IMG/VR virus record: IMGVR_UViG_3300042691_015921
Origin: a virus
Length of the DNA: 64,000 bases
Direction: 5' to 3' (one strand)
Shown: positions 18,385 to 29,679 of the stretch, piece after piece
Numbering within the stretch: the stretch's first letter is position 1
How the letters are laid out: each line of letters begins with the position of its first letter
Made by a program: the position numbers and the translations under genes
The notes under the pieces: generated by a model
Databases searched by the model: none
What the model saw: only the letters and a program-made list of their open reading frames with translations
Told to the model about the DNA's origin: nothing

Positions 18385-18482
18385 TGGTATGCCGTTTGCT
18401 ATATGCAAATCCCGTGCCGGAAATTAATTCTCGTTTGGCACGATTTTTGCGAGCGGCCCAAAGCGGCCGCTCCGCTGCGGCC
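18385..18482 (+). repeat. sigma54-site/hairpin module, copy 1
   Basis: -24/-12 sites at 18385(+), 18405(-) and 18436(+); hairpin GAGCGGCC-CAAAGC-GGCCGCTC at 18451-18472. Confidence 0.85.
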
Positions 18483-18556
18483 ACTTAATGGGGTTGTATT
18501 AGAGTGCTACCCATTTTGCAACTGTCGGCGGGCTGGGTAGCCCCACCATAATTATG

Positions 18557-18823
18557 TCAGTATGTAGGGAGTTCAGCAATAATCTGCTTGGCAAAAAGAT
18601 GGTTTGGCTGTCCCAAAACGTCTGCTTCTTCAAGATCATCACCCTTGTAACATCCAATATTCATACTGTACGGAAGAATAACATCAAGCGATCCATTGTA
18701 GTCTAAGGCAGCATTGCTAGGACGCAACTGAATCACCAGTTGTTTACCGCCAGGAAAATTGATGATGAAATCGCAATCATGATCTGGTGCTTCTTGATGA
18801 ATCTCAGTGAACTTATAGTTCAT
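18557..18823 (-). CDS. hypothetical protein
   Basis: ORF with an AAGGA RBS. Confidence 0.55.
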   Translation of the reverse strand: MNYKFTEIHQEAPDHDCDFIINFPGGKQLVIQLRPSNAALDYNGSLDVILPYSMNIGCYKGDDLEEADVLGQPNHLFAKQIIAELPTY

Positions 18824-18857
18824 TTCTATTTCCTTAGATTAGAGGTAAAGCTGCCAA

Positions 18858-18930
18858 TGCCCCCACTAGGACTTGAACCTAGAACCTATCGGTTAAAAGC
18901 CGAATGCTCTGCCAATTGAGCTATAAGGGC
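18858..18930 (-). tRNA. tRNA-Lys(TTT)
   Basis: Cloverleaf GCCCTTA...; anticodon loop CTTTTAA; T-loop TTCAAGT. Confidence 0.93.
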
Positions 18931-18938
18931 AACTATTG

Positions 18939-19322
18939 TTAGTTTCTTTCCTCAAGAATGTAGACTTGCCGGTCTTGAGTTACCAGGGTGGCATATTCAT
19001 ATCCGTCCCAGATGAACTCCCCGTCATCACTATCCCGCCTCCAGTGAGGATCGACAATAGGATTATAGAACAAACGCTCCAGATTGTCAACCGGAATATT
19101 TTCAGTCACGATCAATTCCGCACACTCAATCCATCCCGCCACATCCTTAACGCCTTCGGCGTGGACCTTCTTAGCCTTGTTCACCTTGTTAACCAGCTTG
19201 CACTCAAGCATTTCTAGGGAATACTGCTTGGGGTCAAGATACCTAACAGCACTATCCGGCCCACGAACTTGCCACTTCTTGAAGTTCTCACCGCTTTGAA
19301 GATGGAAGCGAACCTTATACAT
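18939..19322 (-). CDS. conserved phage hypothetical protein
   Basis: MYKVRFHLQSGENFKKWQV; GGAGA RBS; promoter TTGACA-N16-TAGAAT at 19342-19369. Confidence 0.7.
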   Translation of the reverse strand: MYKVRFHLQSGENFKKWQVRGPDSAVRYLDPKQYSLEMLECKLVNKVNKAKKVHAEGVKDVAGWIECAELIVTENIPVDNLERLFYNPIVDPHWRRDSDDGEFIWDGYEYATLVTQDRQVYILEERN

Positions 19323-19370
19323 TTCTATCTCCTTTTCCACCATTCTACCATACTTTTAGTGTATGTCAAG

Positions 19371-19442
19371 TGACCCCACGGGGAATCGAACCCCGGTTAA
19401 CGGATTGAAAGTCCGCTTTCCTAGCCGCTAGAAGATGGGGCC
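19371..19442 (-). tRNA. tRNA-Glu(TTC)
   Basis: Acceptor GGCCCCA/TGGGGTC; anticodon loop CTTTCAA; T-loop TTCGATT. Confidence 0.93.
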
Positions 19443-19447
19443 AACTA

Positions 19448-19648
19448 TCACTGTGGCTCCGCAAGAATTGGTGCTTCGCTGTCGTAATCCATATAGTAAA
19501 TAATCGCGTCTTCGATGAGAGGAATCAGACGCTCTCGCATCTTTTTCAATTCATCATTAGAAAGACTAGGGTAGTCCAGAGCCTCTACCCATGACTGAAA
19601 GAACGCATAGTCAATCAGGATCGAAGAAGTTTGTGCAAAATTACTCAT
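19448..19648 (-). CDS. hypothetical protein
   Basis: ORF with start MSNFAQ. Confidence 0.5.
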   Translation of the reverse strand: MSNFAQTSSILIDYAFFQSWVEALDYPSLSNDELKKMRERLIPLIEDAIIYYMDYDSEAPILAEPQ

Positions 19649-19808
19649 CGTTGATTGCCTTTCGATTAGCGGAACCACGGGTTCGTTGACGCTTGGGACG
19701 GCTGTCGTGCAATCCACTCCCCGACCTGTGGGGGCTGTGACCCTTGCCCAATTCCCACACCGGGCGGATATTGAGTTGGATTGGTTCGTATTTGCGGGAC
19801 TTGCTCAT
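19641..19808 (-). CDS. small basic protein
   Basis: MSKSRKY...GSGLHDSRPKRQRTR; overlaps the upstream gene by 143 nt. Confidence 0.5.
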   Translation of the reverse strand: MSKSRKYEPIQLNIRPVWELGKGHSPHRSGSGLHDSRPKRQRTRGSANRKAINDE

Positions 19809-20016
19809 GCCATTTTCCATCGGGGTGAAGGTGATACAGTTTACCACTGTTTGGATTAAATGCAACTTGCCAAGTCATAATCGGCTGTGGCTGTGCATAC
19901 GATTCCTGAACGATTACCTGGGGAGGAAGCATCGGCATCTGCTGATACTGCCTCCAACCATTATACGCCATTCCTACGATTGTCAAGCCAATTCCAATCC
20001 ATTGGATCATAGTCAA
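19666..20016 (-). CDS. membrane-anchored Pro/Gln-rich protein
   Basis: N-terminal TM segment; AGGAG RBS. Confidence 0.55.
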   Translation of the reverse strand: MTMIQWIGIGLTIVGMAYNGWRQYQQMPMLPPQVIVQESYAQPQPIMTWQVAFNPNSGKLYHLHPDGKWHEQVPQIRTNPTQYPPGVGIGQGSQPPQVGEWIARQPSQASTNPWFR

Positions 20017-27531: not shown

Positions 27532-27621
27532 GCCAGCTTTCCTTTACTTGGGGTGAATTGTGAACGGGGTTTTGTTTCATTGTCCCCGTCCTAAACGCCA
27601 TAGGCGTCTCTTGCGATTATA

Positions 27622-27882
27622 CTAGGCGTTGTCCAGTTCGTCAAGCCTCTCCTGATCGGCAATCCAACGGTCTGCCCTAGATTCCGGGAAAATACCCGAA
27701 AAGCTGGTCTGCTGCACCCACCCCCGATTGTGACTGAATCTCTCCACCGCCACCGCATCGGGATTCAGCCAAACCTTACGATATCGCTTCCCGCGAGTCC
27801 CGCCGTCAAGCCACGCCTCATATTCGGCCCGGTCCTCATACGTCTGCAATTCCGCAAACTGTCCGAAAGTGAAGTTGTCCAT
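27622..27882 (-). CDS. hypothetical protein
   Basis: ORF downstream of the promoter at 27912-27939. Confidence 0.6.
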   Translation of the reverse strand: MDNFTFGQFAELQTYEDRAEYEAWLDGGTRGKRYRKVWLNPDAVAVERFSHNRGWVQQTSFSGIFPESRADRWIADQERLDELDNA

Positions 27883-27935
27883 TGTTTTTTCCCTTTACTG
27901 GTGATTCTGGGATTCTACCACACTTTTCGGTTTCG

Positions 27936-28151
27936 TCAAGCTATTTCTTTGTGTGCTTCCCACGCATCGGCAATATTCTTCGACCGGATGAAGTCCCTAT
28001 ATCCCAATTCAATTCGAACAACATTATCGACGCTTGCGGGGTTTTCCACGAAAGCCGCCAATTCTTTCATGAGGCTTTTCGCTTCCGCCACCGCCTTGTT
28101 CATATAGATACGGTGGCAACGATCCAACTTCTCGTTGATATCCATGTTCAA
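27936..28151 (-). CDS. hypothetical protein
   Basis: GGAGG RBS; promoter at 28169-28196. Confidence 0.6.
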   Translation of the reverse strand: MNMDINEKLDRCHRIYMNKAVAEAKSLMKELAAFVENPASVDNVVRIELGYRDFIRSKNIADAWEAHKEIA

Positions 28152-28274
28152 CCTCCGGGGGTGTTTCTATCTTACACTATCGGAAATCGTTGTCAAGCGG
28201 TTTTCTTCGTCGTGCCGTTGAATCCTTCCCATGTGTTGTATCGGCATTTTACTCCCCCGACATGACTTTGCAAG

Positions 28275-28448
28275 CTTACAAAACTGTAAGGTTCCTAACG
28301 ACATTGTAAGCTGTCATTTTGGCAGTTGGCATGGGATTTGCTAGCCGCCATATTGGCAGGGCGATTGGCACACGGTTTGCTGTGGCCTGCCATTTTGGCA
28401 TTGGCACGGCATTTGCGAGCGGCCCAAAGCGGCCGCTCCGCAGCGGCC
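28275..28448 (+). repeat. sigma54-site/hairpin module, copy 5
   Basis: Three plus-strand sites (28327, 28366, 28402) alternate with three TGYCA-N3-TGGCA-type palindromes; hairpin at 28417-28438. Confidence 0.85.
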
Positions 28449-28542
28449 ATTAGCCTTTATTCTCCCGTGCCCTTTTTGGAGTTCCGCCGCGTCCATCCGG
28501 GGTTAGGGGGGCGGTTTCCCGCTCCCCCTGTCCCCTGGAAGT

Positions 28543-28743
28543 TTATCCTACGCGAGTCATGAAAACCCTTGCGATTCCGCAAGTCGAGATGCTCCATCCC
28601 TGCTCGTCCCAAATCCACGGAGGAAGCCCCTTCGCGTCGGGCGGGAAATACCCGTCAACGTGGATCATCCGATCATCCCCTTCCATCCGCTGGACGGCAC
28701 AGCCATCCTCTTCAAGCCGCTTGATCATTTGTTCGACGGTCAT
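28543..28743 (-). CDS. hypothetical protein
   Basis: Start MTVEQ; promoter-like TTGCCG-N16-TACACT at 28764-28791. Confidence 0.55.
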   Translation of the reverse strand: MTVEQMIKRLEEDGCAVQRMEGDDRMIHVDGYFPPDAKGLPPWIWDEQGWSISTCGIARVFMTRVG

Positions 28744-28826
28744 GATTGAACCCTTCGGGTGAGAGTGTACCAGATTTTCCAGCCCCGGCAAGGGGAGGGG
28801 CGGTTTCCCGCCCCTCCCCGTTTGGG

Positions 28827-29342
28827 TCAGCCGATGATGTACTCCGAACCTTTCATCCGAATCGACCGGATGTTCTCCACCGCGAAATCCCGGAGCATGA
28901 TAGCCTTTTCCGTTCCCTGCCGACCACTGTGGCGGGCGGGCGGAAGCCACTTCGCCACTTCCTCCGGGTCCACGGGGGAAAGGTCGGGCATGATGTAGGC
29001 GATAACGTCGCTCCGCTCCACCTTCGCTTCGATGTACCACTTATCCTTATGGTAGACGAGAGGCGTGCCCGCGATCCGCTCCCCCCACTTCCGGGGTTCC
29101 GCGATGAAATCGGCCACCATCCCCTCACGCTCCCGCTGCCGGTTGACGGCAGACTCATAATTGAAATTGAGAACCCCGTTGACCTTGCGGACAAGCCGCA
29201 GACCGGGGTACGGGTTGCCAGCCCGCAAACGCGGTTCCGTGGATGCCACGAAGGAAACCATCGTCGCACCTTTCACGGAGTGAAGCATGGCGATAAGATC
29301 GGACGCAGAGATACCGATACGATTCGCAATCGTCGCAGACAT
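28827..29342 (-). CDS. conserved phage hypothetical protein
   Basis: T.P.L...NPY...NFNYE.AVN.Q..REG...F....RKWG; promoter at 29391-29418. Confidence 0.7.
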   Translation of the reverse strand: MSATIANRIGISASDLIAMLHSVKGATMVSFVASTEPRLRAGNPYPGLRLVRKVNGVLNFNYESAVNRQREREGMVADFIAEPRKWGERIAGTPLVYHKDKWYIEAKVERSDVIAYIMPDLSPVDPEEVAKWLPPARHSGRQGTEKAIMLRDFAVENIRSIRMKGSEYIIG

Positions 29343-29433
29343 TGTGAAATCCTCTTGAGTGTCGCGGGTTTTCCTCCCCGCGATGGTGTCATTCTACCAT
29401 CTATCATCGGCGTGTCAACACCCCGACTTGAAG

Positions 29434-29679
29434 CTTACGGGATTGTAAGGTTCTCCCTTTGGCACAGCATTTGCTAGCAGCGGTATTACTATTCCTTTAC
29501 TATCGTGTTACTATTCTTTTACTATCTGTTACTGTCATTTTGGCAGGATAGTAAACGTGTGCAAGTCCCGTGCCATTTGCCCTGCCATTTTGACACTGCC
29601 ATTTTGACAGCACTGCAACTCCCGTGCCAAACCGACTGCCATTTTGACAGCCGCCCAAAGCGGCGGCTGCGTTGCGGCC
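29434..29679. repeat. sigma54-site/hairpin module, copy 6, with phased TTACTAT repeats
   Basis: Sites at 29460(+), 29561(-) and 29615(-); four palindromes; hairpin CAGCCGCC-CAAAGC-GGCGGCTG at 29648-29669. Confidence 0.8.

What the first reader, a model, noticed from the sequence alone, without database searches (positions are those of the whole stretch)
18436..29679. Six covarying hairpins, five fused to sigma54 -24/-12 sites and centred on the predicted start site
Seen: an 8-bp GC stem with loop CAAAG(C/A) and tail CG(C/T)(T/C/A)GCG occurs at 18451, 21816, 24206, 26088, 28417 and 29648, spaced 1.2-3.4 kb apart and always intergenic. The stems covary (GAGCGGCC/GGCCGCTC, GAGCCGCC/GGCGGCTC, CAGCCGCC/GGCGGCTG), so pairing or symmetry is under selection. 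In five copies the stem starts at the first base after TGGCA(C/T)G-N4-TTGC. Established: this is the RpoN -24/-12 consensus. Sigma54 holoenzyme binds the -12/-11 fork junction and normally needs an ATPase activator to melt -11 to +1. Inference: with the GC at -13/-12, the stem spans -11 to +11 and +1 falls in the loop, covering exactly the region that must be melted. The sites point against the genes and there is no U-tract on either strand. Possible roles are cruciform-assisted activator-independent promoters, locked traps or roadblocks for sigma54-RNAP, or antisense shut-off switches. I know of no described element with this architecture.
Basis: partly seen in the sequence, partly recalled or inferred. 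Interest (0 to 1): 0.92.

Follow-up and report, generated by a model that had tools for sequence, protein, structure and literature searches.

The report
Phage hairpins fused to sigma-54 boxes
An uncultured freshwater phage and its relatives place binding sites for the bacterial sigma-54 factor directly against GC hairpins between their early genes, most likely as backward-facing switchable promoters packed into gene-end stem-loops. This layout is undescribed and has not been tested at the bench.

Summary
Six co-oriented GC hairpins lie between minus-strand early genes of an uncultured phage. Five start at the first base after a consensus sigma-54 box (TGGCAYG-N4-TTGC). About 14 credible boxes cluster in 11 kb.

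Freshwater metagenome relatives carry the same module. Of 19 distinct box-fused modules, 18 have zero spacing and one has +2. GG and GC are fixed while the box spacer and the loop vary. Stem changes are compensatory.

I read the hairpins as stem-loops of repeated gene-end/promoter cassettes, like the PeSL cassettes of T4-type phages. The sigma-54 box is a real docking site packed against the stem-loop and pointing back into the upstream gene. It probably acts as an activator-dependent antisense promoter that starts in the loop, or as a parked polymerase. A cruciform-driven, activator-independent promoter is unlikely.

Three results limit the "centred on +1" idea:
- More distant relatives keep the backward box but have the hairpin about 45 nt away.
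- Other hairpins here abut sigma-70 boxes.
- A second lineage has the module in sense orientation.

Hairpin-less boxes carry a different palindrome on their predicted start.

No RNA or binding data could be obtained. This scan has already flagged sigma-54 boxes in early regions of other uncultured phages.

The parts
18451..18472 (+). GC hairpin 1 (GAGCGGCC-CAAAGC-GGCCGCTC), followed by tail CGCTGCGGCC to 18482
18436..18450 (+). sigma-54 box fused to hairpin 1 (TGGCACGATTTTTGC), pointing away from the DUF932 gene
   Evidence: Orthologous in L065, L066, L071, L073 and L074
18385..18419 (.). Face-to-face pair of sigma-54 boxes: 18385-18399 on + and 18405-18419 on -
   Evidence: Conserved in relatives
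18247..18352 (-). Two sigma-70 early promoters (TTGCAA-N16-TAGAAT) serving DUF932 (17306-18208)
21801..21837 (+). sigma-54 box (21801-21815) plus hairpin 2 (21816-21837). A divergent sigma-70 promoter lies at 21741-21768 on the minus strand
24191..24227 (+). sigma-54 box (24191-24205) plus hairpin 3 (24206-24227, loop CAAAGA). sigma-70 promoters lie at 24131-24158 and 24052-24079 on the minus strand
24239..24253 (+). CTGCCATTTTGGCAG palindrome, centred 28-29 nt after the predicted start of box 3
26023..26056 (.). Face-to-face sigma-54 boxes (26023-26037 on +, 26042-26056 on -). On the + strand they read as a 17-bp hairpin plus T-run
26073..26109 (+). sigma-54 box (26073-26087) plus hairpin 4 (26088-26109, compensated variant GAGCCGCC/GGCGGCTC). 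A palindrome follows at 26120-26134
28327..28401 (+). Two hairpin-less sigma-54 boxes (28327-28341 and 28366-28380). Each has a TGCCA-N3-TGGCA palindrome (28345-28359, 28387-28401) centred within 2 nt of its predicted start
28402..28438 (+). sigma-54 box (28402-28416) plus hairpin 5 (28417-28438). sigma-70 promoters lie at 28246-28273 and 28169-28196 on the minus strand
29648..29669 (+). Hairpin 6 (CAGCCGCC-CAAAGC-GGCGGCTG). It has no sigma-54 box and is abutted by the palindrome at 29636-29650. Both covarying stem positions are changed
29460..29629 (.). Island 6 boxes: 29460-29474 on +, and 29561-29575 and 29615-29629 on - (sense to the early genes). They are interleaved with palindromes at 29532-29546, 29582-29596 and 29596-29610
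27193..27249 (-). Comparison element: a G-rich hairpin (27221-27249) abutting the -35 of a sigma-70 promoter (27193-27220) with zero spacing
28763..28819 (-). Comparison element: a G-rich hairpin (about 28792-28819) abutting a -35-like TTGCCG (28786-28791) of a weaker promoter-like site

Best explanation
The hairpins are the stem-loops of repeated inter-gene regulatory cassettes in the phage's early region.

Read along the early (minus) strand, each cassette is: end of upstream gene, conserved tail, 8-bp GC stem-loop, a backward-pointing host sigma-54 (RpoN) -24/-12 box, an A/T-rich stretch, one or two sigma-70 early promoters, then the next gene.

The box is a genuine, selected docking site for host sigma-54 RNA polymerase. 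Everything sigma-54 recognises lies upstream of -11, so the stem-loop can be packed directly against the -12 GC.

The consequences are inferred:
- RNA that crosses the palindrome from outside (the upstream early mRNA, or plus-strand read-through) acquires a stable hairpin, which could act as a 3'-end or pause structure.
- RNA started at the box begins in the loop and carries only the 3' arm. It would run unhindered, antisense, into the upstream early gene.
- Until an enhancer-binding activator acts, the polymerase stays parked as a closed complex between the stem-loop and the next sigma-70 promoter. The activator would be a host protein or an unrecognised phage protein.

No cruciform is required.

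Shown: the anatomy, the conservation and the pairing. Inferred: sigma-54 binding, the start site, the antisense RNA, and any terminator or stabiliser role.
For: Box reality:
- Enrichment is 17 hits against 1.25 expected, and the hits cluster in the early region.
- GG and TTGC are invariant across 17 distinct copies with variable spacers.
- The island upstream of DUF932 is syntenic in relatives at about 70% protein identity. There, only the boxes, hairpin and tail remain alignable.
- A backward box at the same place is kept in relatives at 50-68% identity. In the complete 148-kb relative G003, all 5 boxes lie on one strand within 13 kb.
- Boxes are absent from the high-GC relatives.

Directionality:
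- In the window there are 10 plus-strand against 4 minus-strand boxes. G003 is a mirror image, and its boxes again point toward the late block.

Regulated-promoter look:
- Seven hairpin-less boxes carry a TGCCA-N3-TGGCA palindrome centred -2..+2 of the predicted start.

Cassette reading:
- Every hairpin lies 19-137 nt after an upstream minus-strand ORF and 30-230 nt before sigma-70 promoters.
- G-rich hairpins abut sigma-70 -35 boxes at zero spacing.
- This is the stem-loop plus early-promoter logic of PeSLs (PMC4122927).

Structure rather than protein site:
- 100% pairing, compensatory changes at two positions, only G.T as a single-sided change, and free loop sequence.

The 5' arm always fits inside -11..-1.

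Precedent: phage YuA uses a sigma-54-type promoter (PMC10914365).
Against: - There is no RNA, transcription-start or binding data.
- No Sigma54_activat gene was found in five related phage records, two of them complete, or in the large ORFs of this window. No enhancer site was recognised.
- The stem-loop has no U-tract on either strand, so a terminator role is unproven. Canonical terminators are not enriched anywhere in the window.
- The -11..-4 segment is 7/8 G+C, which is poor for melting.
- The host is unknown, so the presence of rpoN is only inferred.
- The two G.T pairs and one C(UCCG)G loop fit the plus strand slightly better than the early-gene strand.
- All copies may descend from one founder cassette, so the constant spacing is partly inherited.
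Confidence: 0.4

Rival explanations
1. Parked-polymerase barrier only. Sigma-54 holoenzyme binds but is never activated. Its stable closed complex insulates each early sigma-70 promoter from read-through, or tunes the back-to-back sigma-70 promoter. The stem-loop marks the edge of the unit.
For: - No activator gene was found in relatives or in the window, and no enhancer was recognised.
- The melting region is GC-rich.
- The position, between the stem-loop and the UP-like A/T tract of the next sigma-70 promoter, is constant.
- U-tract terminators are lacking.
- E. coli work proposes RpoN holoenzyme as a repressor at 'repressive promoters' (PMC8743547), and sigma-54 is known to bind in an inactive state (PMC4591121).
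Against: - Strong orientation bias and palindromes on the start sites look like regulated promoters.
- Sigma-54 is scarce compared with replicating phage DNA (own knowledge).
- Geometry argues against a joint hairpin-roadblock action. A polymerase arriving on the minus strand would meet the parked complex before it had transcribed the hairpin (inference).
Confidence: 0.22
2. Protein operator. The GC palindrome is bound as duplex DNA by a dimeric phage regulator that represses the sigma-54 promoter at its start site. The TGCCA palindromes do the same at the other boxes.
For: - Constant 8+6+8 geometry in the window lineage, a conserved stem sequence and a sequence-conserved tail.
- A second, protein-site-like palindrome family occupies the same position at hairpin-less boxes.
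- More distant relatives have sequence-conserved inverted repeats just downstream of the box, and their half-sites vary independently.
Against: - Both half-sites change together, with 0 mixed G/C copies among 17. The only one-sided change is G.T.
- In the second lineage, stem and loop lengths differ (9+4+9, 7+6+7) while the position is kept.
- Quasi-palindrome correction could mimic covariation, so this rival is not excluded.
Confidence: 0.12
3. The adjacency has no function. Box and stem-loop work independently. The zero spacing is a frozen accident of one founder cassette, copied around the early region and inherited by relatives.
For: - 79-nt and 43-nt repeat families show the copies are paralogous.
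- More distant relatives separate the box and the GC hairpin by about 45 nt.
- One copy has +2 spacing, and one hairpin has no box.
- One cassette in lineage B has the box inverted.
Against: - No indel at the junction in 18 of 19 modules, although spacers, loops and flanks have diverged beyond alignment.
- A second lineage with a different stem and orientation again has the hairpin 0-3 nt after TTGC.
- In hairpin 6 the stem's first pair changed compensatorily when the neighbour changed.
Confidence: 0.1
4. DNA-structure switch. Supercoiling extrudes the palindrome as a cruciform, putting a four-way junction exactly at -12/-11. That is the fork junction sigma-54 binds most tightly. The result either locks the holoenzyme or helps it open without an activator.
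For: - The dyad lies on the predicted start in 18 of 18 perfect-palindrome boxes, against 2.5% for random anchors.
- Zero spacing puts the junction at -12/-11.
- A divergent sigma-70 promoter would supply negative supercoils (inference).
- Short promoter hairpins do extrude in vivo in phage N4 (PMC4496689).
Against: - Wild-type sigma-54 needs an activator even when DNA is pre-opened. Bypass needs both a mutant sigma and a pre-formed bubble (PMC7057263).
- N4 extrusion depends on specific loop bases, whereas here the loops vary freely (eight versions).
- The stem is GC-rich with a 6-nt loop and only 8-bp arms.
- G.T copies would put an A.C mismatch in the other arm.
- Sister lineages keep the box without the abutting palindrome.
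Confidence: 0.07
5. Not sigma-54 at all. TGGCAC-N5-TTGC is the site of another protein, or an RNA motif sitting 5' of a hairpin.
For: - TGGCA is also the half-site of the TGCCA-N3-TGGCA palindromes.
- In lineage B a sigma-70 promoter lies just upstream, so the box and hairpin would be transcribed as a short RNA.
- The host is unknown.
Against: - The match is to the full bipartite consensus with exact GG-N10-GC spacing and a free spacer, on both strands, with and without hairpins.
- The same motif recurs in several unrelated phage lineages.
Confidence: 0.07

Closest known systems
PeSL cassettes (promoter-early stem-loops) of T4-type phages (PMC2839356, PMC4122927)
   Same: Repeated composite units between small early ORFs: a stem-loop, then an A/T-rich stretch, then a near-consensus sigma-70 early promoter, then the next gene. 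The G-rich hairpins of this window abut the -35 box exactly in that order.
   Different: Here a sigma-54 box is inserted between stem-loop and promoter and points backwards. The stem-loops have no U-tract. The phage is not a recognisable T4-type myovirus. Cassette-mediated shuffling was not tested, and the DUF932 island is in fact syntenic in relatives.
Sigma-54 (RpoN) -24/-12 promoters, including the sigma-54-type promoter of Pseudomonas phage YuA (PMC10914365, citing Ceyssens et al. 2008)
   Same: Full consensus TGGCACG-N4-TTGC. GG and GC are conserved and the spacer is free. There is a phage precedent for using host sigma-54.
   Different: No enhancer and no activator gene were found. Most boxes are antisense to genes. 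A palindrome is centred on the predicted start. There are many copies per genome.
Intragenic, antisense and 'repressive' sigma-54 sites of E. coli and Salmonella (PMC4591121, PMC8743547, PMC3844500)
   Same: Holoenzyme binding sites that do not head a gene, are often antisense, and are possibly inactive or repressive.
   Different: Those sites are scattered inside genes. These are intergenic, arrayed, co-oriented and fused to stem-loops in a virus.
Hairpin promoters of coliphage N4 virion RNA polymerase (PMC4496689)
   Same: A short inverted repeat inside a phage promoter whose pairing, rather than sequence, is partly what is conserved. Extrusion in vivo has been shown for such short stems.
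   Different: The N4 hairpin is centred at -11, has a 3-nt loop with required bases, and is read by a phage single-subunit polymerase.
Rho-independent terminators
   Same: A GC-rich 7-9-bp stem of the common AGCCGCC/GGCGGCT type. Unrelated phage contigs use almost the same stem followed by a T-run.
   Different: No U-tract on either strand in the window lineage. In lineage B the stem is followed only by an A/U-rich ATTATATCAT.

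Membership tests
Sigma-54 (RpoN)-dependent promoter | Bipartite -24 GG / -12 GC box matching TGGCACG-N4-TTGC with fixed spacing | tested here: met
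   17 hits against 1.25 expected. GG and TTGC are invariant in 16 box-bearing distinct copies with variable spacers.
Sigma-54 (RpoN)-dependent promoter | Bound by sigma-54 holoenzyme as a closed complex | not testable with these tools
   Needs EMSA or footprinting. The host is unknown.
Sigma-54 (RpoN)-dependent promoter | Dependence on an AAA+ enhancer-binding activator with an enhancer site | tested here: inconclusive
   No PF00158 in five related phage records, two of them complete. No Pfam match in the large ORFs of the window scanned other than tail-repeat and intein domains. A host activator cannot be examined. The palindromes lie at the start sites, not at enhancer distance.
Sigma-54 (RpoN)-dependent promoter | Transcript starting about 12 nt downstream of the GC | not testable with these tools
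PeSL composite terminator/promoter cassette | Stem-loop followed by an A/T-rich region and a sigma-70 early promoter, repeated between small early ORFs | tested here: met
   All six islands follow this order on the minus strand. G-rich hairpins abut -35 boxes. Definition from PMC4122927.
PeSL composite terminator/promoter cassette | Marks boundaries of gene gain, loss or replacement between close relatives in T4-type genomes | tested here: inconclusive
   The DUF932 island is syntenic in five relatives, and the other islands have partial matches only. The relatives are short contigs. No close relative was found among deposited phage genomes, so a T4-type affiliation could not be shown.
Rho-independent terminator | GC-rich stem-loop immediately followed by a U-tract | tested here: not met
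   The stem is present (about -17 kcal/mol). The flanks are CGCTGCGGCC on the plus strand and GCAAAWW on the minus strand. None of the six hairpins is listed by the terminator scan.
Dimeric-protein operator palindrome | Half-site sequence conserved, with no requirement for complementary changes | tested here: not met
   Changes are compensatory at two positions, with no mixed copies. Stem and loop lengths differ in lineage B. Quasi-palindrome correction is not excluded.
Supercoil-extruded promoter hairpin (N4 type) | Extrusion at physiological superhelicity, dependent on specific loop and closing-pair bases | not testable with these tools
   The loops vary freely in eight versions, which does not resemble the N4 requirement. 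Extrusion itself needs chemical or enzymatic probing.

The most novel reading that the evidence does not exclude
The palindrome works as DNA. Negative supercoiling from the divergent early sigma-70 promoter extrudes it, placing a four-way junction exactly at the -12/-11 fork that sigma-54 grips. The phage would thereby lock or release host sigma-54 polymerase according to local transcription. This would be a structure-gated sigma-54 switch with no known counterpart.
Probability: 0.07. Interest if true: 0.9.

Novelty: new variant of a known kind. Interest (0 to 1): 0.62.

Why it matters
Use of sigma-54 by phages is almost undocumented. In the papers I could search, the one mapped case is phage YuA. 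The role of antisense and intragenic sigma-54 sites in bacteria is still open.

A clade of uncultured freshwater phages keeps arrays of consensus sigma-54 boxes in its early region. Most point against the early genes and carry a palindrome on the predicted start. This gives a compact, repeatable test bed of 40-60 bp modules for three questions:
- Can a parked sigma-54 polymerase act as a barrier or tuner?
- Can a promoter be embedded in a stem-loop so that its own RNA escapes the structure?
- Can a virus read host physiology through host enhancer-binding proteins to throttle its early genes?

The module would also be a very compact part for synthetic gene circuits.

Tried and rejected
- Rfam, at gathering and at E<=1: only tRNAs in the region, and nothing at the hairpins.
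- Deposited phage genomes: no near or protein-level relative for the region or for DUF932. rIIA gives only distant hits.
- Hairpin-only pattern in IMG/VR: nine hits, all unrelated hairpins in GC-richer contigs, some followed by T-runs like terminators.
- Bacterial genomes: over 120 hits to box plus left arm. The loci I examined were chance matches, mostly without a hairpin. No host or prophage clue emerged.
- Phage-encoded activator or sigma-54: none found in relatives.
- Alternative pairing of the 3' arm with the conserved tail, as a 5' hairpin for the sigma-54 transcript: 96% paired but no covariation, and it breaks in exactly the two copies whose main stem covaries. Rejected.
- Strand of action from folding energies: the two strands are equal within about 1 kcal/mol.
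- Helical phasing between the box and the sigma-70 -35: distances of 33, 33, 84, 82 and 129 nt show no clear phasing.
- Plus-strand terminators for antisense RNAs: not above chance, except the face-to-face box pair at 26021-26058.
- Sigma-54 as the general late promoter: only one box (46992) in 32 kb of late genes.
- Whole genome of the window: not held.

Full report
**Setting.** The window is part of an uncultured tailed phage. It encodes rIIA, a large terminase interrupted by an intein, tail proteins and three tRNAs. It has no close relative among deposited phage genomes, and no whole genome is held for it.

Genes run on the minus strand up to about 31.9 kb and on the plus strand (structural genes) after that. 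The segment 16-32 kb has G+C of about 0.50, against 0.33-0.43 elsewhere. It consists of small minus-strand genes, several with phage-type Pfam domains, and two tRNAs. It is dense in near-consensus sigma-70 promoters on the minus strand, 47 against 16 expected. It is therefore an early, hyperplastic-looking region.

**The observation.**
- The hairpin core occurs six times, all in one orientation, against 0.01 expected.
- Five stems start at the first base after TGGCA(C/T)G-N4-TTGC.
- The sixth stem (29648) follows a TGCCA-type palindrome. Its first base pair has changed compensatorily to fit that neighbour.
- The sigma-54-type motif is strongly enriched, 17 against 1.25, and clustered. A relaxed scan puts 15 of 17 hits inside 18.3-29.7 kb. 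One of the 15 overlaps a sigma-70 box and is probably chance.
- No U-tract follows the stem on either strand.

**Anatomy of an island.** Read along the early (minus) strand, each island has this order:
1. End of the upstream ORF, 19-137 nt before the stem.
2. Tail.
3. GC stem-loop.
4. Reverse-complemented sigma-54 box.
5. In some islands, further boxes in either orientation and TGCCA-N3-TGGCA palindromes.
6. An A/T-rich tract.
7. One or two sigma-70 promoters.
8. The next gene.

Two islands also hold a face-to-face pair of boxes (18385/18405 and 26023/26042).

**Relatives with the same module.** A metagenome scan found ten contigs carrying the same module. IMG/VR added L075 and L092.
- I count 19 distinct box-fused modules. 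Eighteen have zero spacing and one has +2 (L092:4014).
- GG and TTGC are invariant, while the box spacer takes ten forms.
- The loop takes eight forms: CAAAGC, CAAAGA, CTCCGG, CTCCGT, GTAAAC, TTTAAG, CTACAG and CATAAG.
- On 17 distinct rows the stem is 100% paired. Two of eight pairs change on both sides (G-C to C-G and to A-T at the closing pair, G-C to C-G at pair 5). The only one-sided change is G.T, seen twice. No shuffle reaches the observed covariation score.
- Pairing of the 3' arm with the tail shows no covariation and breaks in the two covarying copies. The tail is therefore conserved as sequence, not as structure.
- The island upstream of DUF932 is orthologous in five relatives at about 70% protein identity. 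In the alignment only the boxes, hairpin and tail survive, and the flanks are unalignable.

This is a phylogenetic footprint.

**More distant relatives.** DUF932 homologues at 50-68% identity in IMG/VR keep a backward box upstream of DUF932 in the low-GC members. No comparable array appears in the high-GC members, where a single box occurs in one locus. That fits host-specific use.
- In the complete 148-kb relative G003, five boxes lie on one strand within 13 kb.
- G003 is a mirror image of the window, and its boxes again point toward the structural block.
- In these phages the -11..+1 region is ordinary. An inverted repeat GTAAGTCC...GGACTTAC lies at about +1..+33. Its half-sites switch between two forms independently, as a protein site would. 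A GC-rich segment follows about 45 nt downstream.

The backward box is therefore the deeply conserved feature. Abutment to the hairpin is specific to the window lineage.

**A second lineage.** Contigs L083 and L086 have sigma-70 promoters and sigma-54 boxes on the same strand, so the boxes are sense to the genes.
- Three of the five L086 boxes are again followed within 0-3 nt by a strong GC hairpin of different stem and loop length.
- The same hairpin type also follows a sigma-70 -10 box directly.
- One cassette has the box inverted.

**Packing in this window.** G-rich hairpins abut sigma-70 -35 boxes with zero spacing. Tight packing of stem-loops against promoter boxes is therefore a general habit of these early regions. 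It resembles the PeSL cassettes of T4-type phages, which consist of a stem-loop, an A/T-rich region and an early promoter (PMC4122927).

- Among 44 distinct boxes in the window lineage, 18 have a perfect palindrome with arms of at least 6 bp downstream. All 18 have their dyad 0 to +2 from the predicted -1/+1 boundary. The figure for random anchors is 2.5%.
- Seven hairpin-less boxes carry a different palindrome, TGCCA-N3-TGGCA, centred -2 to +2 of the predicted start. Five hairpin boxes carry it at +28/29.
- That palindrome has ten copies in the early region against 0.09 expected, and all have the T-rich centre on the plus strand.

A dyad on the start site is thus a recurring property of these boxes. 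It is what one expects of regulated promoters, where an operator or structure sits at the start.

**Mechanism.** I commit to the composite-cassette reading (confidence 0.40).
- The stem-loop belongs to the end of the upstream early unit.
- The box is a real RpoN docking site packed against it. Packing is possible because sigma-54 reads nothing downstream of -12.
- The polymerase stays parked until an activator acts. It then starts in the loop, so its RNA lacks the 5' arm and runs antisense into the upstream gene.

The main rival is that it never fires and serves only as a barrier or tuner (0.22). This is compatible with the proposals of repressive RpoN promoters in E. coli (PMC8743547).

A cruciform that removes the need for an activator is unlikely for four reasons:
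- The review of sigma-54 mechanisms states that even bypass mutants need a pre-opened bubble. Two barriers therefore exist, region I and melting (PMC7057263).
- The -11..-4 segment is 7/8 G+C.
- The loops vary freely, unlike the N4 hairpins that do extrude (PMC4496689).
- The G.T copies would give a mismatch in the opposite arm.

A cruciform that locks the holoenzyme at the -12/-11 fork is not excluded (0.07).

**Limits.**
- No activator gene (PF00158) or sigma-54 gene (PF04552) was found in five related records. None was found in the large ORFs of the window.
- Bacterial genomes gave only chance matches, so the host is unknown.
- No RNA evidence could be obtained.
- All steps beyond anatomy, conservation and pairing are inference.

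**Comparison with what is known.**
- Sigma-54-type promoters in phages have one mapped precedent, YuA (PMC10914365).
- Antisense and intragenic sigma-54 sites are known in enterobacteria (PMC4591121).
- Stem-loop/promoter cassettes are known as PeSLs.

I found no paper describing a sigma-54 box fused to a start-site-centred hairpin. Earlier notes of this scan report sigma-54 boxes in early regions of other uncultured phages. The general phenomenon has therefore been seen before on other DNA. The fused hairpin is the new element here.

I class the finding as a new variant of known kinds.

Noticed in passing
window 36337-39426 (+): The 1029-aa large terminase carries an intein-like insert, with Hint and LAGLIDADG homing-endonuclease domains at residues 104-391.
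   Followed up: partly
window 24239-30923: There are ten co-oriented copies of a CTGCCATTTTGGCAG palindrome against 0.09 expected by chance. In the window and its relatives, such palindromes are centred on the predicted starts of hairpless sigma-54 boxes in the sense that seven hairpin-less boxes have one within 2 nt of the start, and five hairpin-fused boxes have one 28-29 nt downstream. This looks like the operator of an unidentified regulator.
   Followed up: partly
window 27193-27249 and 28763-28819 (-): G-rich hairpins (GGGGAGGGGG...CCCCCTCCCC family, six copies between 27.2 and 30.4 kb) abut sigma-70 -35 boxes with zero spacing, in the PeSL order.
   Followed up: partly
window 16000-32000: The early region has G+C of about 0.50, against 0.33-0.43 in the rest of the window. 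This suggests a different origin or a different selective regime.
   Followed up: no
window 18385-18419 and 26023-26056: Face-to-face pairs of sigma-54 boxes have their -12 elements 4-5 bp apart, and relatives conserve them. The minus-strand member (CGGCACGGGATTTGCA) is conserved even in its spacer. On the plus strand the pair at 26021-26058 reads as a hairpin plus T-run.
   Followed up: partly
window 46992-47006 (+): A single sigma-54-type box (TGGCACAAGAGTTGC) lies in the late region. It is intergenic, sense to the genes, and about 255 nt upstream of the gene at 47262.
   Followed up: no
L084:2470-2712: An unrelated IMG/VR contig (G+C 0.56) carries five sigma-54 boxes. Three of them are in tandem at a 25-bp period.
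   Followed up: no
L083 and L086 (for example L086:1880-1900): Early genes of this second phage lineage look leaderless: TAGAAT or TATAAT, then 6 nt, then ATG. Their cassettes contain a conserved ATTATATCAT box after the hairpin. On the opposite strand this box reads as an extended -10 sequence (TGATATAAT) pointing back into the hairpin.
   Followed up: partly
L014, L032, L080 (G003:29400-42200): In more distant relatives, conserved inverted repeats ACGTAAGTCC-N11-GGACTTACGT lie just downstream of each backward sigma-54 box, often twice. Their half-sites alternate between AAGTCC and AAACCC. They are probably protein sites.
   Followed up: partly
window 18857-18931 and 19370-19442 (-): tRNA-Lys(UUU) and tRNA-Glu(UUC) sit inside the early region, each next to a consensus sigma-70 promoter. 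In relatives L069, L073 and L074 a tRNA ends about 20 nt before the hairpin tail.
   Followed up: no
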